Part shown: piece after piece, positions 28,250-41,281 of the stretch
How the letters are laid out: every line of letters starts with the position of its first letter
Position numbering within the stretch: the stretch's first letter is position 1
DNA from: Patescibacteria group bacterium
GTDB lineage: Bacteria; Patescibacteriota; Microgenomatia; UBA1400; PJMF01
DNA length: 64,000 bases
Reading direction: 5' to 3'
Assembly: GCA_040879165.1 (NCBI GenBank)
Contig: JBBDKV010000017.1
Location: 23,739 to 87,738, forward strand
The notes under the pieces: model-generated
The model's database searches: none
What the model saw: the letters and a program-made list of their open reading frames with translations, nothing else
What the model was told of the DNA's origin: nothing
Program-made: the position numbers and the translations under genes

Positions 28250-29305
28250 TTAAAAATAATTATTCACCGCAAAATGATACTGATCTAAAAACAACCTTTT
28301 TAGATGATACATATTATTAGTTTCATAAAAAATTATGAGCGCTTGCTTATATTCGTTTTCATTTATGCTTCTATATGAAAGTGGAAAGTGGTCATATGCT
28401 AAAAGTACGGCATTTGAAAGCATTCTGGCTGTTCGTTTATTGCCATCAGCAAATGGTTGAATATAAGTCATTAGAGCAGAGACAATCAGAGCCTTTTCAA
28501 GAGGATGAGCTGTCTTATTGACCAAATTAATCATCTTCTTAACCGCCTCTTTTAGCTCCCAAGCATGTGACAATGGTTTGTATGTGGTGCCAGTTATCCC
28601 CACTGCCTGTTTTCTAATACCACTTGTTATTGGCAAGTTTTTGGTTAACACACCATGAAGTTCCAGTACGTCCTTGGTTTGAAGTTTCTTAAAGCTCGTT
28701 CGATGCTCAATGAGTGTTTTACATGCATCTTTGTGATTTAAAATCATGTCTGCTTCTTCTCTGCTTTTACCTTTTGCCTCAATGCCTTGTTTAATCAGGC
28801 TCTCTGTTTCAAGCAAGCTATAGGTATTTCCTTCAATTTTCGAAGATTTCCAAGAAAGCTCAATCACATAACGCTCTAGCTCTCTCTCAAGAATAGTGGG
28901 GTCAAGTTTTTTCGTAGATTTGTCAAAAGAACGAAATGTTTTGTCCAAAGCACTTTGCTCTGGACTTTCTAGTAATCCTGGAAGCAATTCGAAAACTCCA
29001 GCATCAAACACGGTTTTAGCTAGCTTTCTATTATCAGGCTCTATAGAAAAATATTGCTTGAGATCAACATATGCAAGAAGTGGGTGTGTCGAAGCTGTAT
29101 TATATGCTGTACTTGGACCACTACCAATAGAAATGATGAGTCCTTTTTTAACCAAGTATTTGAGATCTCTTGCGAGGGTGGCTTTGGAAGATTGAAAAGC
29201 CTCCGGTAGCCTGGCTGAAAGCCTTTCTCTAGAAATACTCTTGGTCTTGGCAATAGTATTTACTATTTCTTTCTGCCTAGTGTTCAGTTTTATCGTCTCA
29301 TTCAT
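28250..29305 (-). CDS. Fic/DOC family protein with an N-terminal wHTH and a degenerate Fic motif
   Basis: The motif region reads QPFADGNKRTARML, against the canonical HPFx(D/E)GNGRxxR. The catalytic His is replaced by Gln, and the second Gly by Lys. Confidence 0.7.
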   Translation of the reverse strand: MNETIKLNTRQKEIVNTIAKTKSISRERLSARLPEAFQSSKATLARDLKYLVKKGLIISIGSGPSTAYNTASTHPLLAYVDLKQYFSIEPDNRKLAKTVFDAGVFELLPGLLESPEQSALDKTFRSFDKSTKKLDPTILERELERYVIELSWKSSKIEGNTYSLLETESLIKQGIEAKGKSREEADMILNHKDACKTLIEHRTSFKKLQTKDVLELHGVLTKNLPITSGIRKQAVGITGTTYKPLSHAWELKEAVKKMINLVNKTAHPLEKALIVSALMTYIQPFADGNKRTARMLSNAVLLAYDHFPLSYRSINENEYKQALIIFYETNNMYHLKRLFLDQYHFAVNNYF

Positions 29306-29424
29306 GAGCTCTTATCGTCTCATAATGAGTCGATTTTTACAATCAGTATCATTTCTTGAGGTTTGGCTATAGGAATTTGCGTGACAACTCCGGAGGTAAG
29401 AAGAAAGATGCTATTAATCACTCG

Positions 29425-29787
29425 CTATTTTCGCAAAATCTTCTCCATCGCCCTCCCATTTGCCAACTCATCAACCAGCTTGTCCAGATATCTGACCTGT
29501 TTGGTTAGGGGACTATCAATTTCTTCGATGCGATAACCACAGATTGTGCCCGTAATCTGCTCAGCATTGGGATGCAGTGTTGCTTTTTGGAAAAATTCCT
29601 CAAAAGTAGCGTCCGCATCAATCAGCTTTTGCTGTTGCTTTTCATCAAACCCAGTCAGCCACTCAATAACCTGATGCAATTCTTTTTTTGTTCTGCCTTT
29701 TCTCTCAACTTTTGTGACGTAGTGGGGATAGACTTCTGCAAAGGTCATTTTTGCCATGCGCTCGTCGTGTTTTGGGGTGGTTTTCAT
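29425..29787 (-). CDS. DUF2200-family protein
   Basis: 120 aa. MAKMTFAEVYPHYVTKVERKGRTKKELHQVIEWLTGF resembles DUF2200. From memory. Confidence 0.45.
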   Translation of the reverse strand: MKTTPKHDERMAKMTFAEVYPHYVTKVERKGRTKKELHQVIEWLTGFDEKQQQKLIDADATFEEFFQKATLHPNAEQITGTICGYRIEEIDSPLTKQVRYLDKLVDELANGRAMEKILRK

Positions 29788-29789
29788 AG

Positions 29790-30248
29790 TTATTTCTCCT
29801 CATGAAAATTAATCATCCAACAGACTCCAAACTTGTCTTTGAAACTGCCATAGTAGTCACCCCAGAACTGATCGGCCATCGGCATTTCTACTTCGCCACC
29901 CTCGGACAATGCTGCGAAAAGCCTGTCTGCTTCTGCTTTTGAATCAGGGTGAACCGAGATGTAATTATTGTTTCCCATAGTGACTGGTTTGCCCATGGAC
30001 TTAGTGACGTCATTCGCCATTAAGTACTGCCCATCACCAAGAGGTATTGAAACATGCATAATCAAGTCTTTTTCATCTTCTGCTACTTCGTTGTTCTCAT
30101 CATCGGCCGGCATCTCGCCAAAAGTCATTGTCGAATCCATTTTGACTCCAAATGCTTGTTCGTAAAATTCAAAGGCTTGTCGGGCATTTCCATTAAAGTT
30201 GAGATATGGGTTGAGCTTCATAGTTTCCTTTTTTGTGAGCACTACCAA
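29790..30248 (-). CDS. VOC (glyoxalase/bleomycin resistance/PhnB-like) family protein
   Basis: LNPYLNFNGNARQAFEFYEQAFG at the N-terminus is typical of PhnB-like VOC proteins. Confidence 0.6.
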   Translation of the reverse strand: MVVLTKKETMKLNPYLNFNGNARQAFEFYEQAFGVKMDSTMTFGEMPADDENNEVAEDEKDLIMHVSIPLGDGQYLMANDVTKSMGKPVTMGNNNYISVHPDSKAEADRLFAALSEGGEVEMPMADQFWGDYYGSFKDKFGVCWMINFHEEK

Positions 30249-30342
30249 GTAGCATTTTATACTTTGCCTTGAATTTTTTCTAGAGATACCTCATTTGTTA
30301 ATTCAGGCAAGATTTTACACAGCATCATATTTTGATCAGTGC

Positions 30343-31086
30343 CTACGTAATTTGTATCCTCCTTGTGGCGTGCTTAATAATCCACTGTGTGTTTGTATTG
30401 TCGGAAGTACGGTGTTTTTTAATGAATGCAACGGCGAGTGGCTTATTTACCTTCAGATAATCAGTCAAGTTGTTTGCTACAGATTTTTGGACAAATTTCA
30501 CATCATCTGCTAATAAGTTTGCGAGTATTGCAAAAACAGGTTCTGGCTCATCGATAAAAACATCAAGTTTTGTCGCCCAAGGTAGCTTTGGCCTACAACC
30601 TTCAGAAGCCAATCTGCGCAGATGAAAGTTTTTAGATTTTGACCATTTTTGCATGACTGTAATAGTCTTTTGAGGATACGTTTTTAGAAACGGTCGAATT
30701 GCATACTCACCAGTATTTCTTTTGGTTATTTCTTCAATAGCATGAATTGAGATCTCAAAATGCTCCAGTCCGTATGTTTCTACAAATTTTCCTATTGGCA
30801 GTATCCAGTAATACTGAGTGAACATGCCTGTTTCATTTGGATTTTCTTTCCCAAGTATTGAAGTTACAATCTGCAGTGCTTCAGGATAGGGTTGGGGTAA
30901 AAACTCCCTCAACCTTTTAGCATGTAGCTCCACTCTTTTAGAGTAACTGAGATCTTTGCACTCCTTTTTGATAGACTTGATGTAGGATTCGCTATCAAAT
31001 TCTTTGTAAACACTGGTAATTTTTTCAGCCAGTAATTTTGCAAGATTATCACCAAACCACTGAGTGACACTGTTGTCTTTTTCCAT
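30343..31086 (-). CDS. DNA alkylation repair (AlkC/AlkD-like HEAT-repeat) protein
   Basis: 247 aa, helical repeat composition. The motif assignment is tentative. Confidence 0.4.
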   Translation of the reverse strand: MEKDNSVTQWFGDNLAKLLAEKITSVYKEFDSESYIKSIKKECKDLSYSKRVELHAKRLREFLPQPYPEALQIVTSILGKENPNETGMFTQYYWILPIGKFVETYGLEHFEISIHAIEEITKRNTGEYAIRPFLKTYPQKTITVMQKWSKSKNFHLRRLASEGCRPKLPWATKLDVFIDEPEPVFAILANLLADDVKFVQKSVANNLTDYLKVNKPLAVAFIKKHRTSDNTNTQWIIKHATRRIQIT

Positions 31087-31145
31087 ATATTCACTTTTTT
31101 AAAATTATAGCAGTCCAACTTGCTTTGTTCAGCTCGTTTCGTTCC

Positions 31146-31676
31146 TTAAAGAGCCACTAATTTCTGAATGGTGTTCCAGTTTCTTGTAGTCAAATTTTTT
31201 CCAAAACGCTTTTCTAACACGTCCATTGCTTTTGGAGTCTTTGCTTTTGACAGGTCTAGCACACTTAAAATTATATTATTTTTGACAGCAATTATTTGGT
31301 AGGCCTTGTCTTCTGTAGCATACGGAACTTCTAGCTCAGCCTGAGGGGTTTCTTTTAACAAAGAAGCATAGAGCCTGTGATCTGTATGCATATTGATGTG
31401 CTTGAAGGGATTTTGTTCAACCAACTCAGCTATCTCCTGCTGTGTTCTCAAAATCACAGGTATTGGAAATCCAAATGATTTGGAAAGAAAATCTTCTAGC
31501 TTGTTTTCTAAATCCTGCAGGTCCGAGCGCTTTGTTTCAAAAACAATATTTCCTGAATTTAGCAATGTTCTGACGTCTTCGCAACCTAGTTCATTGAGTT
31601 TGTCACGAAGCTCCGCCATCGGCACCTTGTGATGCCCTCCTACATTTATGCCGCGCAAAAAGCCGAGTGCTGTCAT
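31146..31676 (-). CDS. DUF1697 family protein
   Basis: LGFLRGINVGGHHKVPMAELRDKL matches the DUF1697 N-terminal signature. Confidence 0.6.
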   Translation of the reverse strand: MTALGFLRGINVGGHHKVPMAELRDKLNELGCEDVRTLLNSGNIVFETKRSDLQDLENKLEDFLSKSFGFPIPVILRTQQEIAELVEQNPFKHINMHTDHRLYASLLKETPQAELEVPYATEDKAYQIIAVKNNIILSVLDLSKAKTPKAMDVLEKRFGKNLTTRNWNTIQKLVAL

Positions 31677-31679
31677 TTT

Positions 31680-31982
31680 CTATCCTTTTTTAGTATTTTT
31701 TTGAAAATCTAAATGTGCTTCTTGTAATTTCTTCTTAAAAATCGGCATAGATGATGGACCTATACCGTGCATATCAAGAATCTCTTTTTCTGTGTAATTT
31801 GAAAGGTGTTTGATGGTTTTTATTTCTGCGTGCTCCAAAGCCCGCCGCACTGGTGAACCCAACTCCGCCCAAATACTTTCTTTGGTCTTTTCTTTCTCAC
31901 AAGCAGGACATGTCAAGCAATCGCTTGATTTGTAAAATATGTGTCCTTTTGGGCAGGTTTTCTTTCGAGGTGTTTTTTTCAT
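31680..31982 (-). CDS. Hypothetical zinc-ribbon protein
   Basis: CPKGH...CLTCPAC gives a Cys4-type arrangement. 100 aa. Confidence 0.35.
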   Translation of the reverse strand: MKKTPRKKTCPKGHIFYKSSDCLTCPACEKEKTKESIWAELGSPVRRALEHAEIKTIKHLSNYTEKEILDMHGIGPSSMPIFKKKLQEAHLDFQKNTKKG

Positions 31983-31984
31983 AG

Positions 31985-32326
31985 TTATTCTTTTACTTGT
32001 TTTAGCAAATCGGTGAGCGCTGATTCATCTATGTCTTGAGTGTCTTCTATGATAACAAATCGAATAAACTTTCCTTTTCCTTGTAAGAGCTTCTTTGGAT
32101 CATCGAGAGAACTGCCATTATAAAATCCAAGTTGAATGTAGTCTGACTCTGTGTGAATGTATGCTCTAGGTTTTTCCTCAAATATCCAACATCCTTGTCC
32201 CCATTTAACAGATTTTTCAAAATGAGGAGCGATTTTTTTAATCAAGCTTTCAAGTGCACTGATTAACTTTTTATTATCCTCAGATTGATCGTTTTTCCAG
32301 TCGGAAAAGGATTCATAGGCTTTCAT
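31985..32326 (-). CDS. DUF1801 (YdhG-like) domain protein
   Basis: 113 aa. SVKWGQGCWIFEEKPRAYIH resembles DUF1801. Confidence 0.5.
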   Translation of the reverse strand: MKAYESFSDWKNDQSEDNKKLISALESLIKKIAPHFEKSVKWGQGCWIFEEKPRAYIHTESDYIQLGFYNGSSLDDPKKLLQGKGKFIRFVIIEDTQDIDESALTDLLKQVKE

Positions 32327-32344
32327 TTTTTGCGTTTTTTAAAA

Positions 32345-33535
32345 TTATTTCTTAGTTATATCATAATCCGGCAGGTCGATATTGTCTCTCAAAGAACGAT
32401 CAATAACCACCTGCCTGAGAGGAGAAAATGACAAAGACTGCATTATAATGTTTCTAGCTTTTTGACCAAAGGTAGTTTTGGGTGCAAAAAAACCTCCAAA
32501 TATTTCTGCTCCTTTTTGTTTTTCCTTGATAAAATCTCGTAATCTTTTTTCATAATTTTCAAATGCTTTTTGGTGATCACCATTTGCGGCTTTTAGTTCT
32601 CCAGCCAAAACATAAGCCTGAGTCATTGCCAAACCTGTTCCTTCACCCGCAAGCAGTGAGGCGCAGCTGGCGGCATCACCAATTAAGGCAACACGACCTT
32701 TTGTCCAGCAATCGAGGTGAATTTGGCTAACACTATCAAAATAAATATCCTCAACTTCATTCATTCGTTCTAATATTTTTGGAGTTTCCCAACTCATGTC
32801 TCCAAAAACTTGTAAAAGAGCTTCTTTTTCTTCCGTTTCCGTTTCGGGTTCTTTTTCAGCAAGTTCTGAGCGAAATACAAATATAAAAAGTGTATTACCG
32901 TTTCTCATAGAAAAACGAGAAACTGACTTTTTGACCGGTGCATGCATGATGTACGTCAGTTCATTTCGTGGCTTGTAGTTAGGGAGCTCAAAGGCAGCAA
33001 CACGATATCCTAAGTGTTTTTCAAATTTTTCTTCCGGACCAAAGACGATTTTTCTTATTTCCGAATGTAAACCGTCTGCGCCAATTACCAAGTCAAACCT
33101 CTCTTTTGAACCATCTGAAAGTTTCGCGATAACACCGCTATCGTCCTGAGTAATTCCCACAATAGAAGTATCAAATCGTGTATCTACATCACTACACGCA
33201 TGATAAATAGTGGCAGCCAAATCGCTTCTGGCAATCGAAAGAAACCGATTGTTTATTGATTTTGCTATGGTGCTCATATCAACTCCGGCCTTCGTTTCCC
33301 CTTTGTCATTTACTATTTGTAGCTGACGAAACATATAAACCTTCTTTTTCAATTAATGTAAAATCCCCATTTTCTCGGCAATATCATACCCAACACCCCA
33401 AAAATCAATAATGTAACCGCCTGTACGCAATTCAGGAGCCTTTTCAAATAAGACAGGCTGATATCCATATTTTTTTAACCAATATGCAAGTGTTGGACCG
33501 GCAACACCAGCTCCGTTTATAGCTATTTTTCTCAT
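32345..33535 (-). pseudogene. FAD-dependent monooxygenase (UbiH/salicylate-hydroxylase-like) interrupted by an in-frame TAA
   Basis: The 60-aa N-terminal ORF has the FAD-binding GxGxxG (IAINGAGVAGPTLAYWL). The 335-aa ORF carries the remaining domain (DGLHSEIR, GDAASCASLLAGEGTGLA). Both are in the same frame, separated by one TAA at 33353-33355. Confidence 0.65.
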
Positions 33536-33538
33536 AGT

Positions 33539-34099
33539 TTATTTTCTTAAATTTCTAATGGCATCAACAAGCTCTGGTAACCCATTGGTAAACGCGTGAG
33601 AGTCGCCATTAAGCGCATGTAACTTTGCTTGAGGAAGTGCTTTTTTGTACACATGTGCGTGATTAAACGGGACAATCGGATCATCTTGGCAATGGAATAA
33701 TTGCATCGACGGTATCTCGGGAAGCTTTTCTGCGAAATTCTTTGCCAGTTTGTATTCCTCAACATTCCAGTCTTCCTCGCCCCAGTAGGGAGCAGCAATT
33801 AAAAAGAGACCGGCAATTTTGATGTCAGAATTACGCTCGGAAAGATATTTTAGAAGAGAAGAACCTCCCAAAGAATGTCCGATGAGTACGCACTCGTCAT
33901 TGCCTCGTTCTCTAAATGCTTTACTCAGCAGGGATTGCCACATCTCGTCTGTAGGTGCTTCTGGATCTTCCAGTATTGGATAGTGTATCTCAAATTCTTC
34001 TCCCAGCTCGGCACGCAAATACGCAACGAGGTCATAGCTTCCTTTTCCTGGGCCGTCTTGTGCACCAGCGCTGTGAGCAAATATAATGTGTTTTTTCAT
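33539..34099 (-). CDS. Alpha/beta hydrolase (YdeN/RBBP9-like serine hydrolase)
   Basis: 186 aa with GHSLGG nucleophile elbow. Confidence 0.6.
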   Translation of the reverse strand: MKKHIIFAHSAGAQDGPGKGSYDLVAYLRAELGEEFEIHYPILEDPEAPTDEMWQSLLSKAFRERGNDECVLIGHSLGGSSLLKYLSERNSDIKIAGLFLIAAPYWGEEDWNVEEYKLAKNFAEKLPEIPSMQLFHCQDDPIVPFNHAHVYKKALPQAKLHALNGDSHAFTNGLPELVDAIRNLRK

Positions 34100-34117
34100 A
34101 TTATTTTCCTAGATTTT

Positions 34118-34636
34118 TCATGGCTTCCAATAGTGTGGCATGGATATACTGCATTTCTTCGCTGGGCTCCCATGATGCATCGTCATCACCTTCATCCGTG
34201 TTCCATTCAGCTTCACCTTCGGTCTGGGGTTATGTTTGAACACCCACCAAAGGTTATTCCACGGGTCAGTAAAGCGAGAAAACACATCTCCATAAAAATC
34301 AGTGGGCTCGGTAACAATCTTTGCTCCCAATTTTTTAGCTCGCTTAAGCGTGCCGTCGACATCATCGACATATACCCTTAGCAAACTAGGCGTGAATGGC
34401 CTTCCTGGCTTAGTATCGCCCACCATTACGATTGAGTCTCCGATTGCAAGTTCTGAATGGATGAGTAATCCATCATTGTCAACTGTATGGGCTGCGGGGT
34501 CTTCGGTGGCACCAAATACTTCCTGCAAAAATTCTATCAGTTTAGAAGCGTCTTTGGTGATAATGAACGAGTTAGCGGTATTATGACCTTTTGGTATGTT
34601 TGGTTTTTTCATACTATTTTCCATTGTAAGCTTCAT
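34118..34636 (-). CDS. VOC family protein
   Basis: VOC-like core (FIITKDASKLIEFLQEVFGA...HSELAIGDSIVMVGD). The C-terminal tail may reflect a frameshift. Confidence 0.45.
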   Translation of the reverse strand: MKLTMENSMKKPNIPKGHNTANSFIITKDASKLIEFLQEVFGATEDPAAHTVDNDGLLIHSELAIGDSIVMVGDTKPGRPFTPSLLRVYVDDVDGTLKRAKKLGAKIVTEPTDFYGDVFSRFTDPWNNLWWVFKHNPRPKVKLNGTRMKVMTMHHGSPAKKCSISMPHYWKP

Positions 34637-35528
34637 TTAACTTAACAATATCAAACTTCTTCATCTTAATAAACGCTTCTGTTACTCTATCAATTTTTTC
34701 TTGATCACCACACGTCATCATTTCATTCATTATAGATGGAACGATTTGCCACGACACCCCGTATTTATCTTTCAACCATCCACATTGTTCAGATTCAGGA
34801 GCTGCAGAAAGCTTCTCCCAGTAGTAATCAATCTCTTCTTGAGTGTCGCAATGTACAACTAGAGAAATACCTTCATCGAAAGCAAATTTGTGCATATCAC
34901 TACTTGCGTCGGTTGCAGTAAACCGCTGACTTTCCAAAGTAAAATCAGTAAACATAATCGACCCTTCCTTACCACCCTCTGCTTCAGCACCCGCCGGATA
35001 ACGAGCAACAATCCCTCGCTTCGAATTCTTAAATACTGAGAGATAAAAATCGGTTGCCTCTTCTGCCTTGTCACAACCTTCTGTTACAAAGAGGAAAGAA
35101 GGAATGACAGCTGGACGATCTTCGCCATCAGGGTCGGTTAAAATAAGTTGCCACGATACTCCATACTTATCTTGAATCCAGCCATACTTCTTACTGAATG
35201 GATACTCACCAAGTTCCATTGCTACCATTCCGCCATCACTAAGTTTTTTCCAAATCTCATCTAACTCTTCTTCGGCATTATCCATTTTAGATGGATCAAA
35301 ATTAACCATAAATGAAATGGATGGGTTTGGCTTGAAATCAGGCCCTGCACTAATGGCCATAAAGTCTTGACCCATGACATTGAAAGTCATGATTTCACAG
35401 TCACCGGAAGGAGTGTTGTTTAAAATGGTACTACTGCTTACTTTTGAATTTGGAAAGACAGAAGCGTAAAATTCCGCGGCTTCTTTTGCTTGTGTATCAA
35501 ACCAAATATGGGGGATTATTTTTTGCAT
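34614..35528 (-). CDS. Tandem PhnB-like VOC-domain protein (3-demethylubiquinone-9 3-methyltransferase-like fold)
   Basis: Two repeats each start with the PhnB-like signature (IIPHIWFDTQAKEAAEFYASVF and the second-half equivalent). Confidence 0.55.
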   Translation of the reverse strand: MQKIIPHIWFDTQAKEAAEFYASVFPNSKVSSSTILNNTPSGDCEIMTFNVMGQDFMAISAGPDFKPNPSISFMVNFDPSKMDNAEEELDEIWKKLSDGGMVAMELGEYPFSKKYGWIQDKYGVSWQLILTDPDGEDRPAVIPSFLFVTEGCDKAEEATDFYLSVFKNSKRGIVARYPAGAEAEGGKEGSIMFTDFTLESQRFTATDASSDMHKFAFDEGISLVVHCDTQEEIDYYWEKLSAAPESEQCGWLKDKYGVSWQIVPSIMNEMMTCGDQEKIDRVTEAFIKMKKFDIVKLNEAYNGK

Positions 35529-35546
35529 GTTTTTATTCTTAGTGAT

Positions 35547-36044
35547 TTATAATTTTAGTAACTCCTCAAGCTGCGTAAGACCGGTATCAAATCCTTCCTT
35601 CATTCCCATCTTCACCAAGGTTTCAAGATCTGCCGCGCTCTTGAGCGTTAGAACGACTTTGAGATTAGTCACATCACCGTCCTGAGTAAAAAGTACCTCC
35701 CATTCTGTAGATGGCATATCACTTTTAATATTCCAATATTCATCAGCAAACGAGTCAGAGCACGTAAATGAATCTTGCGGATCGATCGTGTGAAACTCAT
35801 TTACACAATAATGGGCGACTTCTTCAGGACCAGACATTACATATCGCCACTGACCGCCTGGTTGAAAGTCAAAGCTATGAGTAATGGCCTTGTAGGGCAG
35901 GGGTCCCCACCACTTATCCAGTAATTCGGCGGTGGTGTAGTACTTCCAGACCTTGCTCTTTGGTGCATTAAAACTGCGCTCCGCGATGAGCTGGTTTTTT
36001 GCTGCATCTTCTGTGTACTTTGTTTTCATACAAACTTTCATCAT
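35547..36044 (-). CDS. SRPBCC domain protein (AHSA1-like)
   Basis: SFNAPKSKVWKYYTTAELLDKWWGP is typical of the AHSA1/SRPBCC family, often paired with ArsR. Confidence 0.6.
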   Translation of the reverse strand: MMKVCMKTKYTEDAAKNQLIAERSFNAPKSKVWKYYTTAELLDKWWGPLPYKAITHSFDFQPGGQWRYVMSGPEEVAHYCVNEFHTIDPQDSFTCSDSFADEYWNIKSDMPSTEWEVLFTQDGDVTNLKVVLTLKSAADLETLVKMGMKEGFDTGLTQLEELLKL

Positions 36045-36050
36045 TACTTA

Positions 36051-36368
36051 TTACTTTTCAAGTAACGCATCCAGGGCATCAAATCGAGCAGACCAAGCAG
36101 TTTTCATCTGCCGCACCCACTCCTCAAGCTCGTCAAATGCGCGTGCGTTGAGCGTGTACAACCGCCTGCGCGCCTGCCGCTCCATCTGTATCACCCGTGC
36201 CTCTCTCAAAATTTTCAGATGCTGGGAAATAGCTGCGGGAGAAATTTCAAATTGATTGGAAATGTCAGTGGCGGACATCTGACCACGGTCTGCCAGCAAC
36301 TCAACGATCTTTCTGCGTCGTGGTTCCGCTAAGGAGGAGAAAAGCAAGTTTGAAGAGTTTTGAAGCAT
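36051..36368 (-). CDS. ArsR/SmtB family transcriptional regulator
   Basis: RRRKIVELLADRGQMSATDISNQFEISPAAISQHLKILREARVI is an HTH_5 domain. Confidence 0.8.
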   Translation of the reverse strand: MLQNSSNLLFSSLAEPRRRKIVELLADRGQMSATDISNQFEISPAAISQHLKILREARVIQMERQARRRLYTLNARAFDELEEWVRQMKTAWSARFDALDALLEK

Positions 36369-36556: not shown

Positions 36557-37021
36557 TTAGGCATATGGCTGATTTCTACCAATTTCAAAATATGTTTCAC
36601 AAAAATCTGATGATTTTTCTACAAACTTGAGCGAATCACTTACATAATCAATCACATTATTTGGGAGATCGCTAATGTTAAACCACTTCAATTCAGAACA
36701 TTTTCCTGGTTCATTATTGCGGATTTTTCCCTTCCAGTTACTGATTTCAAAATAAAAATCCAGCGTTTCTCTATCAATAGAAAATCTATCAAACACGCCA
36801 ACAAAATTTAGACTGTCTTCTGAAATAGTAATACCAAGTTCTTCCCAAGCCTCTCTGACAGCAGCATTTCTGACCGATTCATGAACTTCTTTATGACCCG
36901 CCGGAAGACCAAATTGACCATCTCTATGTCTCGTATTCTGGCGTTTCAAAAACAACACTTTATTATCTCTACGAAAAATGAGGAAAACAACCACATGTAG
37001 TTTAAAAGAGTGCTCAGTCAT
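36557..37021 (-). CDS. NUDIX hydrolase
   Basis: Nudix box GLPAGHKEVHESVRNAAVREAWEELGI (GX5EX7REUXEEXGU). Confidence 0.8.
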   Translation of the reverse strand: MTEHSFKLHVVVFLIFRRDNKVLFLKRQNTRHRDGQFGLPAGHKEVHESVRNAAVREAWEELGITISEDSLNFVGVFDRFSIDRETLDFYFEISNWKGKIRNNEPGKCSELKWFNISDLPNNVIDYVSDSLKFVEKSSDFCETYFEIGRNQPYA

Positions 37022-37023
37022 AG

Positions 37024-37686
37024 TTAGAATTTAGCAAATTTTTGCATCAAAATGCGTGACACACTTGTTGTTAGAATGTCTCTATCTAAAACTCCAATCT
37101 GGGAAAGCAAATGTCTCGTGTCATTCTTTGCTTTGTCAACATTTATGTCATCTACTAATTGCTCCACCTCAATGACTGTACCAAAGTCGGGTATTTCATC
37201 AAAAACTATCGTGTACTCTCCCAACTCATAAGTCTGCCTATCTTTGAGAATTGAAAAGAAGCATTTGAATCCAATAATTTCAAGTATTTGGCAGATAGAT
37301 TCCCATGACTGAATACTACTCTCAATTTCTCTCCAGGAACTATGATCATTTTGCCTTGTTAACACTTTGGTGTTAATATTACTTTCCACACCAGAAGATT
37401 TGGTAATTCTCCTCACTCGTAATCCGTACGAACCAACTTTATTCATGGCAATTTCATCAAAAGATCTCACATTCTGTGGGCAGAAATGAGCGTCTTCAAT
37501 TCTTTGATCTAAGATTCGCTCAGCACCCAGTTGTTCCAAGTTTTCAATAACCGTTGTTAAGACGTCTCGAGAAATTAGAGCCCTGGTTTCAACTTCTATG
37601 GGGGCTACCAACTTTTCAGTTGTGCTTAAAGAGTGTTCTTTATTTTTCATAATCTTATCATCCATATTTAGCGTGTTGTATACCAC
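37024..37686 (-). CDS. CYTH-domain protein (class IV adenylyl cyclase/triphosphatase-like)
   Basis: N-terminal IEVETRA follows the ExExK-like pattern. GLRVRR is present. C-terminal FGTVIEVEQ resembles the CyaB/CYTH signature. Confidence 0.55.
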   Translation of the reverse strand: MVYNTLNMDDKIMKNKEHSLSTTEKLVAPIEVETRALISRDVLTTVIENLEQLGAERILDQRIEDAHFCPQNVRSFDEIAMNKVGSYGLRVRRITKSSGVESNINTKVLTRQNDHSSWREIESSIQSWESICQILEIIGFKCFFSILKDRQTYELGEYTIVFDEIPDFGTVIEVEQLVDDINVDKAKNDTRHLLSQIGVLDRDILTTSVSRILMQKFAKF

Positions 37687-38462
37687 TTTTTTGCAGGGAT
37701 TGTAAAAGTTACCTTGGCCTTGCTTGTTTCTCTAGACTCACTACCAATGATTTGAGCAGTTCTTTTCTTTGTTGATTCAAGAATAGCATTGAAGCGATCA
37801 TCATCTAAATTAATCGGAATGTCTGCTAGGTGTGCCGCACCATAATCTTGGTTTAGTTGTTTGTTTAAATCATCGGGCTTAGGCTTAGTTCTAACAGCAA
37901 TTTCTACTTGAGGAGCCTGTCTGGTTTTAGGCAAAAAATCAAATGGCCCAAATCCTACAAGCCAAGCCTCAGAGTCTTTACTAATTCGTAATCTCAACTC
38001 TAGTATAACAAACTCTCCAAATAATCGCTCTGCAGTAATTTTGACAATCTTTTTTTCGAATAATGACCGAATAGTGTCGCAAAGCTGTTCAACAGTATGG
38101 ATCTCTGGAAATATAAGACTTAAGTTTTGACACTTTGGGTTATCAATTGATGCTTGAAGCAGAGACGGTAAGTCATTGCTGTTCTCTCGAACAACCTCTG
38201 AGTCCCACCCAAGTTTATCTGCTTGTGCAGCAACGATTTGAGCGAATACACAGCCATTTTGACCTCTTATGTGCCAATGCCTCTGCACGTCCTTAACGAG
38301 TTGGTCATTGCTCCAGAGCTCGTGCGGATAACAAATCGTACCTTTTTTTATGAAATATGCTTCATAATCAATTCGAGCGGGAAACCTCAAGCCATTTATT
38401 TCAGTAGATTGTGAAATGGTATTGTTTATTTTAACTACACGTTCTTTACTCATATCAAACAT
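37668..38462 (-). CDS. Hypothetical protein, 264 aa, first gene of the unknown-CYTH-Nudix operon
   Basis: Overlaps the CYTH gene start by 19 nt. There is possible faint YqcI/YcgG-like similarity (GCVFAQ), not supported further. Confidence 0.4.
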   Translation of the reverse strand: MFDMSKERVVKINNTISQSTEINGLRFPARIDYEAYFIKKGTICYPHELWSNDQLVKDVQRHWHIRGQNGCVFAQIVAAQADKLGWDSEVVRENSNDLPSLLQASIDNPKCQNLSLIFPEIHTVEQLCDTIRSLFEKKIVKITAERLFGEFVILELRLRISKDSEAWLVGFGPFDFLPKTRQAPQVEIAVRTKPKPDDLNKQLNQDYGAAHLADIPINLDDDRFNAILESTKKRTAQIIGSESRETSKAKVTFTIPAKKWYTTR

Positions 38463-38493
38463 GATTAATAATTAGTACTATAGTTTATATTTT

Positions 38494-38540
38494 GATTTAG
38501 TCAACATCTCTTTGATATATTAGAAATTATTGGTAAAATC
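38494..38540 (+). promoter_or_regulatory. Putative sigma70-like promoter in the divergent intergenic region
   Basis: TTGATT-18nt-TATATT, and an extended -10-like TGGTAAAAT just upstream of ATG 38549. Confidence 0.25.
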
Positions 38541-38548
38541 TAGATATC

Positions 38549-39115
38549 ATGAAAAATATCGAAGTTAGAACACAACTGGGTGGCAAGTTCTCCAGAGAAG
38601 ATGATGGGATATTTGTATTAAAGAAGCAACTGAAAAGTTTGGGAGTTGCAGTCACTTTTCCAGAGGGGGACAATATAATTGGTGATCACAATGGTATCCC
38701 AGTCACCTTTAACCCAAATGAGAAAGATTTCTATCAAGTTGAACTTGAATATTTAGCCTCTATTCGAGATAGCTCACTTCATATTGTTTATAACAATAAA
38801 CCAGATGTGTCTGGATATATCGGGGAGAGCGCAAGTCTCGAGATGCTGTATGCCATTGCACATAACAAACCTATCATTATCATGTACAGTCCTATAGTTC
38901 TATCCAATACAGTTTGGGATGAGGTCAGAGAGCCTATTAGCAGAAATCAAAATGAGTTTTTTCAGATACGATTCGATCTTTTAACTCCTGAAGAAGTGCT
39001 ATCAATAATCGATAGGGCTGCTCAAAGCACCCCAAAATATAAACTAACCTCTGAGGAATCTGAAAAAGTATTTCCGCTTATATTAAAGTTAATGAGGCAG
39101 TACAGAAATAGATAG
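38549..39115 (+). CDS. Nucleoside 2-deoxyribosyltransferase-like (Rossmannoid NDT/SLOG/TIR-class) protein
   Basis: GYIGESASLEMLYAIAHNKPIIIM resembles the GTAxEiGyAxAxgKPvi core of the NDT family. Inference. Confidence 0.35.
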   Translation: MKNIEVRTQLGGKFSREDDGIFVLKKQLKSLGVAVTFPEGDNIIGDHNGIPVTFNPNEKDFYQVELEYLASIRDSSLHIVYNNKPDVSGYIGESASLEMLYAIAHNKPIIIMYSPIVLSNTVWDEVREPISRNQNEFFQIRFDLLTPEEVLSIIDRAAQSTPKYKLTSEESEKVFPLILKLMRQYRNR

Positions 39116-39211
39116 GTGCAGTATGAGCACAAAACCAGATAAAAAAATTATTCAGCAAAGAGTTGATCCGCGCCACACATTCATACAAAAAAATCCAGCT
39201 TCGCGGGATTT

Positions 39212-39238
39212 TTCTGTATGAGCGGGTGAAGGGAGTCT
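39212..39238 (-). repeat. Partial direct copy of the tRNA-Gly 3' end (about 25 nt with a 3-nt indel)
   Basis: tttttctg(tat)gagcgggtgaagggagtc here versus tttttctgagcgggtgaagggagtc at the genuine tRNA 3' end (39363-39386). Confidence 0.6.
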
Positions 39239-39334
39239 ACGACTCACTCGTTTCACTCGTTCGCATGCATTAGCCAGCCCCGCTGGAGCGGGGTTGGCGG
39301 CAGAACCAAAGAGTTGATCCATGCCACCACCTCA

Positions 39335-39367
39335 GAAAAATATTGACCCTGTCGGGTCATTATTTTT
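39335..39367 (-). terminator. Rho-independent terminator downstream of tRNA-Gly
   Basis: Hairpin gaccc-tgtc-gggtc flanked by an A-run and a T-run, reading on the minus strand. Confidence 0.5.
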
Positions 39368-39370
39368 CTG

Positions 39371-39442
39371 AGCGGGTGAAGGGAGTCGAACCCTCGTCAC
39401 CAGTTTGGAAAACTGGAGCTCTGACCGTTGAGCTACACCCGC
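39371..39442 (-). tRNA. tRNA-Gly (TCC)
   Basis: Acceptor GCGGGTG/CACCCGC. D-arm GCTCAACGGTCAGAGC. Anticodon stem CCAGT/ACTGG with loop TTTCCAA. T-arm GAGGG-TTCGACT-CCCTT. Confidence 0.85.
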
Positions 39443-39551: not shown

Positions 39552-40811
39552 CTATGCTGGCACCTTCGCCTGCAGATCTGCCTTACGACTCGCTCGCAGT
39601 GACACACCAAACGCAACCAAAAACAGCACAAGGCCCAGAATGAACACACCTGGAATACTATACGTCGCCACCACACCAGCCATCAGTGGACCGCCGATTT
39701 GCCCAAGCGACATGTACGAAGCGTTGATTCCCAGCAAACCACCTTGCTCTTTGGAACTTGCACGTTCAGAAATCATCCCTGAAATAATCGTCAAAATTGG
39801 TCCACTAAACATCATGTACACAAACAAAAATGCCACAAACATTGAAAAATTGCTTATAAACCCAAGCGCTCCAATCAGCGCAGCAGCACCCAGCTCTGCT
39901 CCGAGAATGATGTGTTCGTGATTGGTAATTTTCCTAAGCAGCACTCGAATACCCACTGCCTGCATCAGCAAATTCACCAGCCCCGAAGCCGCAAACAACA
40001 AGCCAATCTCGCGAGGACTCAACATCAGCACATCGACTGTATACGATTGAAATCCAATAAAAAACGCATTTTGCGCCAGCGAAATTATCAGCACCGTCAA
40101 CATCAGCATGCCCATCACTGGTCGCTTCAGTACACCCACAAATGCTTTAAAGTCAAAAAATGGCTCATCACCCCGCACCTTTTTATTCTTATCATCCAGC
40201 GTTTCCTCCAGGAAAAAGTAGCCAAAAATAGTTGCAGTCAGTGCCAAGCCAGCTGCAAACCAGAAGGGAAACGTAATATTGATTTCACTCAATAACCCAC
40301 CAATTGCTGGTCCAATCAAAAAACCAAAACCAAACGACGCTCCAAGTAGACCAAACGCCTTCGCCCGCTCCTTACCCTCCACTCGATCAGCGATCACAGC
40401 CTGAGCCACCGACATATTCCCCCCAGTGATACCATCGAGAATTCGCGCTAGAAAAAGCATTAGCACCGAAGTGGCTGAAGCAAAAAAGGCCAATGACAAA
40501 CTGGTACCCAACAAACTAAGCAGGAGCAATGGTCGCCGTCCATAAATATCCGATAACCTTCCGATAATGGGAGTTGCCAAAAACTGAAACAACGAAAACG
40601 AGGCAAACAAAAAACTCAAGCCAAGTGGATCAATGCCAAATCGACTTGCATATGGGTAGAGCAGGGGAATGATAGTGCCATATGATAGCGCATTGATCAA
40701 CATCAATACCGCTAAGAACACCAAAGTTCGCTTATGTGAATCTGTTTGATCAGGAGGCAATGCCGAACGAGCAGTAAGGATTCTGGAGAAAAACATATAG
40801 CTTGCTCTCAA
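39552..40811 (-). CDS. MFS transporter (drug/H+ antiporter-like)
   Basis: Twelve predicted TM segments. MFS motif A GRLSDIYGRRPLLL. Confidence 0.85.
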   Translation of the reverse strand: MRASYMFFSRILTARSALPPDQTDSHKRTLVFLAVLMLINALSYGTIIPLLYPYASRFGIDPLGLSFLFASFSLFQFLATPIIGRLSDIYGRRPLLLLSLLGTSLSLAFFASATSVLMLFLARILDGITGGNMSVAQAVIADRVEGKERAKAFGLLGASFGFGFLIGPAIGGLLSEINITFPFWFAAGLALTATIFGYFFLEETLDDKNKKVRGDEPFFDFKAFVGVLKRPVMGMLMLTVLIISLAQNAFFIGFQSYTVDVLMLSPREIGLLFAASGLVNLLMQAVGIRVLLRKITNHEHIILGAELGAAALIGALGFISNFSMFVAFLFVYMMFSGPILTIISGMISERASSKEQGGLLGINASYMSLGQIGGPLMAGVVATYSIPGVFILGLVLFLVAFGVSLRASRKADLQAKVPA

Positions 40812-40977: not shown

Positions 40978-41061
40978 GGCCCGGTGGCGGAATTGGTAGA
41001 CGCGTCAGACTTAAAATCTGATGATGGCAACATTGTGTGGGTTCGAGTCCCACCCGGGCCA
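40978..41061 (+). tRNA. tRNA-Leu (TAA), class II with a long variable arm
   Basis: Acceptor GGCCCGG/CCGGGCC. D-loop GAATTGGTAGA. Anticodon stem TCAGA/TCTGA with loop CTTAAAA. T-arm GTGGG-TTCGAGT-CCCAC. Confidence 0.85.
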
Positions 41062-41086
41062 CAATTGAGTTATAATACAGAACGAA

Positions 41087-41153
41087 TCAGGGAGTAGCTC
41101 AGATGGTAGGTGCGCCCCGCTTAGCGGGGTGAGGTCACTACCTGCGACCCTGA
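41087..41153 (+). pseudogene. Degenerate tRNA-Pro-like copy
   Basis: The 5' half (GGGAGTAGCTCAGATGGTAG-GTGCGC) is near-identical to tRNA-Pro, with a 1-nt deletion in the D-stem. The anticodon region is replaced by a tight CCCCGC-TTA-GCGGGG hairpin, with no T-arm or acceptor closure. Confidence 0.4.
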
Positions 41154-41179
41154 TACAATATATTCGGCGTATGTATAGC

Positions 41180-41252
41180 CGGGGAGTAGCTCAGATGGTA
41201 GAGTGCGCGCTTTGGGAGCGTGAGGTCGCAGGTTCGAGCCCTGTCTCCCCGA
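41180..41252 (+). tRNA. tRNA-Pro (TGG)
   Basis: Acceptor CGGGGAG/CTCCCCG. D-arm GCTCAGATGGTAGAGT. Anticodon stem CGCGC/GCGTG with loop TTTGGGA. T-arm GCAGG-TTCGAGC-CCTGT. Confidence 0.85.
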
Positions 41253-41281
41253 CATAGTAAGCAACGCGAGTAAAAAGGGGA

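What the first reader, a model, noticed from the sequence alone, without database searches (positions are those of the whole stretch)
36557..39115. Nucleotide-centric cluster: unknown-CYTH-Nudix operon with a divergently transcribed deoxyribosyltransferase-like gene, at the tRNA-Gly end of an accessory island
The CYTH (triphosphate tunnel) and Nudix genes have overlapping or 2-nt-spaced frames with an unknown 264-aa protein. An NDT/SLOG/TIR-class Rossmannoid protein is encoded divergently from a shared promoter region. These domain classes recur in nucleotide-signal-based conflict systems, and the locus lies in a mobile or accessory context.
Basis: inference. Interest (0 to 1): 0.55.

Follow-up and report, generated by a model that had tools for sequence, protein, structure and literature searches.

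The report
Heme-enzyme-like nucleotide-processing gene cassette
The "unknown" gene in this candidate-phylum bacterium belongs to a large unannotated family that resembles heme enzymes which add oxygen to nitrogen atoms; it travels, and is sometimes fused, with a triphosphate-cleaving enzyme and a base-releasing enzyme, which points to an undescribed pathway for making or handling a chemically modified DNA/RNA base.

Summary

Y, CYTH and the NDT-like gene are adjacent in 15 of 19 informative loci from Patescibacteria and Actinomycetota, and three distinct proteins are Y::CYTH fusions. A fourth unannotated gene, F4, usually joins them but is absent from the window. The Nudix is a lineage-specific add-on. 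Other Y loci pair it with MOSC plus kinases, with Ham1, or with a DHH phosphoesterase.

Best reading (inferred): a pathway that N-oxygenates a purine nucleotide, removes the phosphates and releases the base, with pool-sanitising partners. The defence or signalling reading is not supported but not excluded. The "tRNA island" claim is only partly supported.

The parts
37668..38462 (-). Y: a 264-aa protein (261 aa from the NCBI start at 38453). It belongs to an unannotated family with a YqcI/YcgG-like fold and is a putative heme-thiolate N-oxygenase. Key residues are W63, C71 (motif G-C-V-F-A), R181, K193 and H211.
37024..37686 (-). CYTH / triphosphate-tunnel metalloenzyme. It is 220 aa from the GTG start, and probably 208 aa starting near 37650.
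   Evidence: Pfam CYTH 3.4e-10 and NCBIfam cyaB 58.4 bits against a 57.95 cut-off. The ExEx[K/R] motif, the tunnel Lys and Arg, and the C-terminal Glu are invariant in the cassette clade. The closest solved proteins are archaeal CYTH, Y. pestis class IV adenylate cyclase and Saci_0718 TTM.
36557..37021 (-). MutT-like Nudix hydrolase, 154 aa; a lineage-specific third gene of the operon.
   Evidence: Pfam NUDIX 9.9e-21. The Nudix box GHKEVHESVRNAAVREAWEELGI is intact. The best solved relatives are MutT proteins. It occupies the same position only in L041 and is absent from L002.
38549..39115 (+). NDT/MilB/Rcl/TIR-class Rossmann-like protein, 188 aa; a putative N-glycosidase or transglycosylase. 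It has an invariant GGK loop and an invariant Glu98 in a G-x-x-G-x-S-A-x-x-E motif.
38463..38548 (.). 86-bp divergent intergenic region with back-to-back promoter-like sites.
   Evidence: Minus strand: TTGACT-16-TATAGT at 38504-38477. Plus strand: TTGATA-16-TAAAAT (with TG) at 38512-38539. Both match 10 of 12 positions. These are consensus matches only.
39370..39442 (-). tRNA-Gly(TCC) flanking the cluster (context).
   Evidence: ARAGORN; Rfam tRNA, 71.7 bits.
39156..39237 (.). Att-like scar. It is a partial direct duplicate of the tRNA-Gly 3' end: 39219-39237 copies 39369-39387, and 39156-39189 resembles 39307-39340 (context).
   Evidence: the repeat finder families D2 and D4; sequence. It lies between the 188-aa gene and the tRNA and does not enclose the cluster.

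Best explanation
The window carries a variant of a conserved, undescribed nucleotide-processing cassette. Its core is Y (a YqcI/YcgG-like, probably heme-thiolate enzyme), a CYTH triphosphate-tunnel enzyme and an NDT/MilB-like N-glycosidase.

Proposed mechanism:
1. Y N-oxygenates the amidine- or guanidine-like exocyclic nitrogen of a purine nucleotide, guanine or adenine. Characterised YqcI/YcgG enzymes do the same to arginine-type guanidines.
2. CYTH removes the tri- or pyrophosphate.
3. The NDT/MilB-like enzyme cleaves or exchanges the N-glycosidic bond and releases or transfers the modified base.
4. The MutT-like Nudix of the window keeps the modified (d)NTP out of the nucleic-acid precursor pool or reverses the modification. 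Ham1, HIT, MOSC and the possible glycosylase F4 would do this in other genomes.

The same parts could run as a detoxification route for such bases rather than a biosynthetic one.

Shown: the gene content, the conserved linkage and fusions, the folds, and the conserved motifs.
Inferred: heme binding, the substrate, the order of steps and the direction of the pathway.
For: Linkage:
- Y, CYTH and the NDT-like gene are adjacent and co-directional in L010-L017, L031, L033, L034 and L007. In the window, L041 and L002 the NDT-like gene is flipped.
- Three distinct proteins are Y::CYTH fusions: P0012, P0013 (= L007) and L014.
- The three genes' distance matrices correlate, r = 0.85-0.95, p <= 2e-4.

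Y as a heme-thiolate N-oxygenase:
- AglA ligates heme through Cys44 and holds the propionates with Arg and Lys residues.
- The ChmN heme ligand Cys47 lies in P-C-T-F-A. Y has G-C-V-F-A.
- In every family member that covers those columns, C71 (138/138), W63 (138/138) and R181 (140/140) are present, and F73 is in 137/139. H211 (131/141) and D214 (115/140) are not universal, which argues against a Cys-His-Asp triad.

Catalytic competence of the partners:
- The CYTH and NDT-like signatures are invariant.
- MilB, a nucleotide N-glycosidase, is the top structural hit for the 188-aa protein.

N-oxygenated purine theme:
- MOSC domains neighbour Y in three independent loci (L005, L009, L042). In L005 and L009 they are fused to an MGMT-type DNA-binding domain. 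MOSC proteins YcbX and YiiM reduce 6-N-hydroxylaminopurine (PMC3831636, PMC5818509).
- A Ham1 gene sits next to Y in L004. From established knowledge, Ham1/ITPase clears hydroxylaminopurine nucleotides.
- The window Nudix is MutT-like.
- Guanylate kinase, adenylate kinase, NDK, an AAA_28 kinase and HIT also recur.
Against: - The link to YqcI/YcgG rests on fold plus a 4-residue motif. Pfam PF08892 matches none of the 145 members scanned, and the family profile finds nothing in PDB sequences.
- Foldseek support is weak: E 0.039, TM 0.34-0.37.
- No residue-level structural superposition could be made.
- From general knowledge, Patescibacteria usually lack heme synthesis and are often anaerobic, which sits awkwardly with an O2- and heme-dependent enzyme.
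- No redox partner (ferredoxin or reductase) is encoded in the cassette.
- No substrate evidence exists.
- The kinase partners are mixed (guanylate, adenylate, NDK), so the identity of the base is open.
- F4's resemblance to MUG/TDG is not significant: PDB profile E 1.3, and HH probability 9-28% over motif A only.
- The MOSC and Ham1 associations come from few loci.
Confidence: 0.4

Rival explanations
1. Nucleotide salvage or house-cleaning operon in which Y is not a heme oxygenase. Y would use its invariant Cys in some other way, for example as a nucleophile on a base, alongside CYTH, an NDT-type base-exchange enzyme, Nudix and kinases. This would fit CPR bacteria, which depend on scavenged nucleotides.
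For: - The neighbours are dominated by ordinary nucleotide-metabolism enzymes: guanylate kinase, adenylate kinase, NDK, an AAA_28 kinase, HIT, Ham1 and Nudix.
- NDTs are classical salvage enzymes.
- Y has no sequence-level membership in PF08892.
- From general knowledge, heme is unexpected in Patescibacteria.
Against: - The only meaningful fold relative is a heme-thiolate enzyme.
- The Cys lies in the same C-x-F-A context as a proven heme ligand.
- No second universally conserved nucleophile or acid-base pair exists; H211 and D214 are replaceable.
- The cassette also occurs in free-living Actinomycetota with full nucleotide synthesis, such as Actinomadura terrae. A special salvage route is not obviously needed there.
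- Its patchy distribution and varied flanks are not those of core metabolism.
Confidence: 0.25
2. Nucleotide second-messenger module, either anti-phage/conflict or sensory. Y would be a heme-based sensor or regulator of a class IV (CYTH) nucleotide cyclase. The NDT/TIR-like protein would make or respond to a nucleotide signal, and the Nudix would degrade it.
For: - CYTH just reaches the NCBIfam class IV adenylate cyclase cut-off, 58.4 against 57.95 bits, and resembles Y. pestis class IV cyclase.
- The fusion order, Y at the N-terminus and CYTH at the C-terminus, is the usual sensor-cyclase order.
- The 188-aa fold also matches TIR NADases and ThsB.
- One Chloroflexota locus (L001) lies among transposases, an nSTAND NTPase and a large helicase.
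- The cluster has lower GC and sits next to a tRNA.
Against: - PADLOC finds no system; the only hit is a generic Nudix model.
- There are no phage copies.
- No effector (nuclease, pore or protease) or cyclic-nucleotide receptor domain appears in any of about 38 loci.
- Y also occurs without CYTH, always beside other nucleotide phosphohydrolases or kinases: DHH in 17 of 17 Chloroflexota loci, and MOSC plus a kinase in 3 loci.
- From general knowledge, many proteins annotated as CyaB-like CYTH are triphosphatases, not cyclases.
Confidence: 0.15
3. Chance juxtaposition of unrelated small genes with no joint function.
For: Nudix and the flanking genes vary between relatives. The outer flanks of the cassette are unrelated across genomes.
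Against: The same three families are adjacent in 15 non-redundant loci across two phyla, with conserved order, 0-20-nt spacings and three distinct gene fusions.
Confidence: 0.03

Closest known systems
YqcI/YcgG family heme-dependent guanidine N-oxygenases (AglA, GntA, ChmN, DcsA; Pfam PF08892 / IPR014988)
   Same: - Both have an absolutely conserved N-terminal Cys in a C-x-F-A context, as at the proven ChmN heme ligand.
- Both have conserved Arg and Lys residues that could hold heme propionates, as in AglA.
- The sizes are similar: about 245-265 aa against 243 aa.
   Different: - There is no detectable sequence membership: PF08892 is not hit by any of 145 members, and identity to AglA is 9-11%.
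- The residue before the Cys is Gly, not Pro.
- The genomic partners are nucleotide enzymes (CYTH, NDT-like, kinases, MOSC, DHH), not NRPS, SznF or arginine-pathway genes.
- The family occurs in Patescibacteria and Chloroflexota as well as in Actinomycetota.
- Heme binding and substrate are untested.
MilA/MilB-type logic of nucleoside-antibiotic pathways (modify an NMP, then an NDT-family hydrolase frees the modified base); also Rcl/DNPH1 and LOG
   Same: The 188-aa protein's top structural hit is MilB (CMP / hydroxymethyl-CMP hydrolase), followed by NDTs and Rcl. It has a conserved Glu in the equivalent G-x-x-G-x-S-A-x-x-E position and a glycine-rich N-terminal loop. It is encoded next to a putative base-modifying enzyme.
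   Different: There is no profile-level membership in PF05014. It has a C-terminal helical extension of about 50 aa. The modifying enzyme is heme-enzyme-like, not a thymidylate-synthase-like hydroxymethylase. A CYTH enzyme is interposed and sometimes fused.
CYTH/TTM enzymes (class IV adenylate cyclase CyaB, inorganic or thiamine triphosphatases)
   Same: It has a Pfam CYTH match, a borderline TIGR00318 match, and conserved tunnel acidic and basic residues.
   Different: The signature is E-x-E-x-R rather than E-x-E-x-K. The window subclade carries an insertion. Fusion or operonic coupling of CYTH to a YcgG-like protein was not found in the searchable literature.
Systems that handle N-hydroxylated base analogues (MOSC proteins YcbX/YiiM, Ham1/ITPase, MutT-type Nudix)
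   Same: MOSC, Ham1 and MutT-like Nudix genes recur beside Y in different lineages. MOSC enzymes reduce 6-N-hydroxylaminopurine (PMC3831636, PMC5818509).
   Different: In E. coli these are scattered detoxification genes with no dedicated N-oxygenase. Here they are alternative partners of a putative N-oxygenase. The window itself has only the Nudix.
Nucleotide-signalling anti-phage systems (Thoeris, CBASS, Pycsar; TIR/SLOG/Nudix-containing conflict systems)
   Same: They share domain classes: a TIR/NDT-like fold, Nudix and a possible cyclase.
   Different: There is no PADLOC system match, no effector or sensor genes, and no presence in phage contigs. The partners are metabolic.

Membership tests
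YqcI/YcgG (PF08892) heme-dependent guanidine N-oxygenases | Sequence match to the family profile (PF08892) at or near the gathering score | tested here: not met
   The window protein has no hit at E <= 1. None of 145 diverse family members hits PF08892 at E <= 1. The family profile finds no AglA sequence in the PDB at E <= 10.
YqcI/YcgG (PF08892) heme-dependent guanidine N-oxygenases | AglA-type alpha/beta 'sandwich' fold | tested here: met
   [not shown]
YqcI/YcgG (PF08892) heme-dependent guanidine N-oxygenases | Absolutely conserved N-terminal Cys (the axial heme ligand) in a P-C-x-F-A type context | tested here: met
   C71 is present in 138/138 members, F73 in 137/139 and A74 in 125/139; C-x-F-[AGS] occurs in 136/138. 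ChmN has A-P-F-P-C47-T-F-A-V, and C47A loses heme. The residue before the Cys is Gly here, not Pro. Equivalence in 3D could not be checked.
YqcI/YcgG (PF08892) heme-dependent guanidine N-oxygenases | Basic residues that bind the heme propionates (AglA Arg166, Lys196, Arg200) | tested here: inconclusive
   R181 is present in 140/140 members, K193 in 118/140 and R191 in 112/140. No residue-level superposition on AglA was available.
YqcI/YcgG (PF08892) heme-dependent guanidine N-oxygenases | Heme binding and N-oxygenation activity | not testable with these tools
   This needs protein expression, UV-vis and CO-difference spectra, and LC-MS assays.
CYTH / triphosphate tunnel metalloenzymes | Pfam CYTH match plus the N-terminal ExExK-type motif and tunnel basic and acidic residues | tested here: met
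   PF01928, 40.5 bits against a 23.2 cut-off. E-x-E-x-R, K, E, R and E are invariant in 15 cassette CYTH proteins.
Class IV adenylate cyclase (CyaB, TIGR00318) | Equivalog score above the cut-off; cyclase activity | tested here: inconclusive
   58.4 bits against a 57.95 cut-off. The closest solved relatives include both cyclases and triphosphatases. Activity is not testable here.
Nudix hydrolases (MutT-like) | Pfam NUDIX match and an intact Nudix box GX5EX7REUXEEXGU | tested here: met
   PF00293, 74.6 bits. The box is GHKEVHESVRNAAVREAWEELGI. The best PDB relatives are MutT proteins. No NCBIfam equivalog cut-off is reached.
Nucleoside 2-deoxyribosyltransferase / MilB / Rcl superfamily | Profile match (PF05014 or related) | tested here: not met
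   No Pfam, NCBIfam or PADLOC hit for the 188-aa protein or for P0033.
Nucleoside 2-deoxyribosyltransferase / MilB / Rcl superfamily | Rossmann-like NDT fold with a catalytic Glu after the central strand | tested here: met
   [not shown]
TIR-domain NADases (Thoeris ThsB, SARM1) | TIR profile match and association with a defence partner such as ThsA | tested here: not met
   [not shown]
Known anti-phage defence systems (PADLOC-DB 2.0) | Hits to the system's component models | tested here: not met
   Only the Nudix matches a generic candidate model, PDC-S07 at 1.8e-11. The other three proteins have no hit.
tRNA-integrated genomic island | An integrase, flanking direct repeats of the tRNA 3' end that enclose the cargo, and a compositional shift | tested here: inconclusive
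   No integrase or transposase was found in 23-43 kb. A 19-nt copy of the tRNA-Gly 3' end exists, but it is only 150 bp away and does not enclose the cluster. GC is 0.37-0.39 against 0.44-0.46 in the flanks.
UDG superfamily (MUG/TDG-like), for cassette partner F4, which is not in the window | Significant profile or fold match, with motif A (G-x-N-P) and motif B | tested here: inconclusive
   The PDB profile hits D. radiodurans MUG at E 1.3. HH comparison with E. coli Mug gives probability 8.9% and then 27.7%, over 36-40 columns covering motif A only. No Pfam domain is recorded for any of the 120 listed homologues (127 found).

The most novel reading that the evidence does not exclude
Y is the founding member of a nucleotide-directed branch of the YqcI/YcgG heme-thiolate N-oxygenases. 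On this reading the cassette is the first genetically defined route to an N-hydroxylated purine base or nucleotide, either 6-N-hydroxylaminopurine-like or N2-hydroxyguanine-like. The Nudix, Ham1, MOSC and a possible DNA glycosylase would serve as producer self-protection. In episymbiotic Patescibacteria, such a mutagenic antimetabolite could be used against hosts or competitors. I am not aware of any known biosynthetic genes for bacterial 6-HAP production, which PMC6739109 discusses for Staphylococcus epidermidis.
Probability: 0.2. Interest if true: 0.85.

Novelty: new variant of a known kind. Interest (0 to 1): 0.6.

Why it matters
Two sizeable protein families with no annotation at all form a conserved cassette with CYTH and an NDT-like enzyme across Patescibacteria and Actinomycetota. 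These are Y (at least 751 clusters at 50% identity) and F4 (127 homologues found).

If Y is a heme-thiolate N-oxygenase acting on nucleotides, three things follow:
- A recently recognised enzyme class would extend from arginine-type natural-product chemistry to nucleobases.
- N-hydroxylated purines would have a biosynthetic origin. Cells already maintain dedicated detoxifiers for them (MOSC, Ham1).
- Heme-dependent oxidative chemistry would be placed in candidate-phylum bacteria, which are thought to lack it.

The hypothesis can be tested directly with a few recombinant proteins. A cultured organism, Actinomadura terrae, carries the cassette.

Tried and rejected
1. Pfam, NCBIfam and PADLOC scans of Y and the 188-aa protein found nothing. 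A Pfam scan of 145 Y members found no recurrent family.
2. The Y profile against PDB sequences found no AglA or other meaningful hit.
3. The afdb50 fold library was unavailable. Foldseek against the PDB supports AglA only weakly.
4. I looked for a sequence bridge to YqcI/YcgG through L028 (Staphylococcus). That locus is a stop-interrupted N-terminal remnant of the Y family joined to DUF1958-like sequence, not a YcgG member.
5. The AglA paper's supplements hold no sequences. The bridge finally came from a ChmN mutagenesis primer.
6. F4 as a MUG/TDG-like glycosylase remains a lead and is not claimed. No F4 homologue was found in plasmids or in the window.
7. No Y relative was found in phage contigs.
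8. No riboswitch lies upstream of the cassette in 15 loci or in the window.
9. The DUF488 literature says nothing about its function.
10. A Cys-His-Asp triad for Y is disfavoured, because H211 and D214 are replaceable.
11. A tRNA-bounded island enclosing the cluster is not supported.
12. I suspected F1 and F4 might be related because both gave faint DHH hits. F1 has true DHH motifs and F4 has none, so I dropped the idea.
Full report
**Observation.**
- Nudix, 36557-37021(-)
- CYTH, 37024-37686(-)
- a 264-aa unknown, 37668-38462(-)
- a divergent 188-aa ORF, 38549-39115(+)

tRNA-Gly(TCC) follows at 39370-39442(-). Exact matches in the public protein collection identify the source as a 113.6-kb contig of a Patescibacteria-group MAG, where both unknowns are annotated "hypothetical protein". 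Nudix and CYTH are confirmed by Pfam. CYTH just reaches NCBIfam's class IV adenylate cyclase cut-off. The CYTH stop and the Nudix start are 2 nt apart. The unknown/CYTH overlap depends on a GTG start; by comparison with the closest relative, CYTH probably starts 12 codons later. The 86-bp spacer between the divergent genes holds back-to-back promoter-like sites.

**The 188-aa protein.** No profile library recognises it, and sequence search finds only four close relatives. An AlphaFold2 model (pLDDT 86) matches:

Across 15 non-redundant homologues, a Q-x-G-G-K loop and a Glu in a G-x-x-G-x-S-A-x-x-E motif are invariant. That is where NDT, MilB and Rcl carry their catalytic Glu; the correspondence is my inference from motif position.

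**The 264-aa protein (Y).** It has no Pfam, NCBIfam or PADLOC match. An exhaustive profile search finds 751 cluster representatives, 529 of them at E <= 1e-10. None of 145 diverse members has a recurrent Pfam family.

Y has G-C71-V-F73-A74. Among 145 diverse members:
- C71 is present in 138/138, W63 in 138/138 and R181 in 140/140
- F73 is present in 137/139
- H211 (131/141) and D214 (115/140) can be replaced

This pattern fits a thiolate heme ligand plus a propionate-binding Arg better than a Cys-His-Asp triad. I could not obtain a residue-level superposition, so heme binding remains an inference. I put it at about 0.6.

**Conserved context.** I recovered 42 related loci from genomes and metagenomes and analysed them with iterated local HMMs.

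Non-Chloroflexota loci number 21 including the window, of which 19 are long enough to judge:
- In 15, Y is adjacent to a specific CYTH clade and to the 188-like protein. The usual order is Y, CYTH, NDT-like, co-directional with 0-20-nt gaps. These come from Patescibacteria (WWE3, Dojkabacteria and others) and from Actinomycetota (Actinomadura terrae, Pseudonocardiaceae).
- Three distinct proteins are Y::CYTH fusions: P0012, P0013 (= L007) and L014.
- The distance matrices of the three proteins correlate, r = 0.85-0.95 and p <= 2e-4. Shared phylogeny contributes to that.
- A fourth gene, F4 (about 280 aa), accompanies the cassette in 13 loci. Its family is equally unannotated: 127 homologues, all "hypothetical". 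F4 is absent from the window and its two closest relatives.
- F4 has motifs reminiscent of MUG/TDG glycosylases (G-N-P-A-P-x-S, H-R-F-W-K-V), but the statistics are weak: PDB profile E 1.3, HH probability 9-28%. I do not claim it.

The window-type subclade (window, L041 at 79% identity, L002 at 65%) has the NDT-like gene flipped to the divergent position. The Nudix follows CYTH only in the window and L041. In L002 a tRNA-Asp occupies that place. The Nudix is therefore a recent addition, not core.

**Other architectures of Y.**
- Three loci lack CYTH and the NDT-like gene. They pair Y with a nucleotide kinase and a MOSC-domain protein. In L005 and L009 the MOSC domain is fused to an MGMT-type DNA-binding domain, and L009 also has a Nudix.
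- L004 has Y, the NDT-like gene and F4 together with Ham1 and guanylate kinase.
- L012 has a guanylate kinase inserted between Y and CYTH.
- Actinobacterial loci have a divergent HIT gene.
- L002 has an NDK-domain protein, and L041 and L042 have adenylate kinases.
- In 17 Chloroflexota loci, Y is always followed by a protein with canonical DHH phosphoesterase motifs, and in 16 of them by DUF488.
- Outer flanks are unrelated housekeeping or mobile genes.
- No copy was found in phage contigs. No riboswitch was found. No paper describing the association was found.

**Mechanism.**
Shown:
- a self-contained module in which a YcgG-like protein is physically and evolutionarily coupled to enzymes that cleave nucleotide phosphoanhydrides (CYTH, DHH, Nudix, Ham1, HIT), re-phosphorylate nucleotides (kinases) and cleave or exchange N-glycosidic bonds (NDT/MilB-like)
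- intact catalytic signatures in CYTH, Nudix and the NDT-like protein

Inferred:
- Y is a heme-thiolate N-oxygenase.
- Its substrate is the amidine- or guanidine-like exocyclic nitrogen of a purine nucleotide.
- CYTH then strips the phosphates, and the MilB-like enzyme frees or transfers the modified base. This parallels the modify-then-deglycosylate logic of MilA/MilB.
- MutT-like Nudix, Ham1, HIT, MOSC and possibly F4 limit incorporation of the product into nucleic acids or reverse the modification.

The recurrence of MOSC supports the N-oxygenated-purine theme, because MOSC proteins YcbX and YiiM reduce 6-N-hydroxylaminopurine (PMC3831636, PMC5818509). So does Ham1, a hydroxylaminopurine-nucleotide sanitiser according to established knowledge. 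Both associations rest on few loci. The direction of the pathway, production or detoxification, is open.

Counter-arguments are the lack of sequence-level family membership, the weak Foldseek score, the absence of a redox partner in the cassette, and the expectation that Patescibacteria lack heme.

**Rivals.**
(a) An ordinary salvage or house-cleaning operon with a non-heme Y (0.25).
In its favour are the borderline CyaB score, the fusion order and the TIR-like fold. Against it are the absence of any PADLOC system, effector or receptor, the absence from phages, and the existence of CYTH-less architectures.
(c) Chance (0.03).

**Island claim.** The cluster ends a roughly 10-kb co-directional run of accessory stress and genotoxin-type genes: Fic, DUF2200, several glyoxalase/PhnB-like proteins, an AlkD-like DNA-alkylation repair protein, DUF1697, DUF1801, a split FAD monooxygenase, a serine hydrolase, AHSA1 and ArsR. 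GC is somewhat lower there, and the flanks of the cassette differ between close relatives. No integrase or transposase is present. The only repeat of the tRNA-Gly 3' end lies 150 bp from the tRNA and does not enclose the cluster. The context is accessory, but an island is not demonstrated.

The real finding is a conserved, unannotated cassette built around a remote YqcI/YcgG-like enzyme. Its components belong to known superfamilies and its logic has precedents, so I rate it a new variant of a known kind. The substrate class (nucleotides) and the coupling to CYTH appear undescribed. Interest 0.6.

Noticed in passing
window 39156-39237 and 39307-39387: There is a partial tandem-like duplication, about 150 bp apart, of the tRNA-Gly 3' end and its downstream segment: 19 nt identical (TGAGCGGGTGAAGGGAGTC) plus a second 34-nt repeat at 76% identity. 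It looks like an att-type scar of a past integration or excision. It does not enclose the gene cluster.
   Followed up: partly
window 32345-33535 (-): An FAD_binding_3 monooxygenase is split into a 60-aa N-terminal ORF (33353-33535) and a 335-aa ORF (32345-33352). This is probably a frameshift or pseudogene.
   Followed up: no
window 28250-36368 (-): A co-directional run of accessory genes: Fic, DUF2200, four glyoxalase/PhnB-like proteins, an AlkD-like DNA_alkylation repair protein (30343-31086), DUF1697, DUF1801, Ser_hydrolase, AHSA1/SRPBCC and an ArsR regulator. It contains no mobility genes. This is an unusual concentration of xenobiotic and genotoxin-resistance-type genes for a small CPR genome.
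   Followed up: partly
L028 5990-6130 (Staphylococcus americanisciuri NZ_JANUXY010000005): A stop-interrupted remnant of the Y family N-terminus (WHSKGQNGCVFAQ; HH probability 97.8% over 68 columns) is joined to DUF1958-like sequence. It appears to be a pseudogene, and it shows the family once reached Staphylococcus.
   Followed up: partly
L010-L017, L031, L004, L007 (e.g. L010 8021-8869): F4 is a conserved protein of about 280 aa that follows the NDT-like gene in most cassettes. It has 127 homologues, all 'hypothetical', and none has a Pfam domain. Its invariant G-N-P, H-R-x-W and S-x-P-S...W-x-G-V-x-G motifs resemble MUG/TDG uracil-DNA glycosylases, but the match is not statistically significant.
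   Followed up: partly
L001, L008, L018-L027, L035-L039: In Chloroflexota (Dehalococcoidia, Tepidiformaceae) the Y homologue is always followed, convergently, by a protein of about 245 aa with canonical DHH phosphoesterase motifs. In 16 of the 17 loci a DUF488 protein follows that. This is a second conserved architecture, with no CYTH or NDT-like gene.
   Followed up: partly
L005 6372-8888 (= L006): Two Y paralogues (277 and 295 aa) flank an AAA_28 kinase gene and are followed by a MOSC + MGMT-type DNA-binding fusion. A RelA/SpoT protein and a dCTP-deaminase-like gene lie nearby.
   Followed up: no
L016 5532-5660: An ALIL pseudoknot, the frameshift element of IS3-family transposases (Rfam, 65.3 bits), lies just upstream of Y. 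An IS element has inserted between the HIT/F6 genes and the cassette.
   Followed up: no
window 40978-41253: tRNA-Leu(TAA) and tRNA-Pro(TGG) lie just beyond an MFS transporter gene (39552-40811), so three tRNA genes sit within 2 kb of the cluster's right edge.
   Followed up: no
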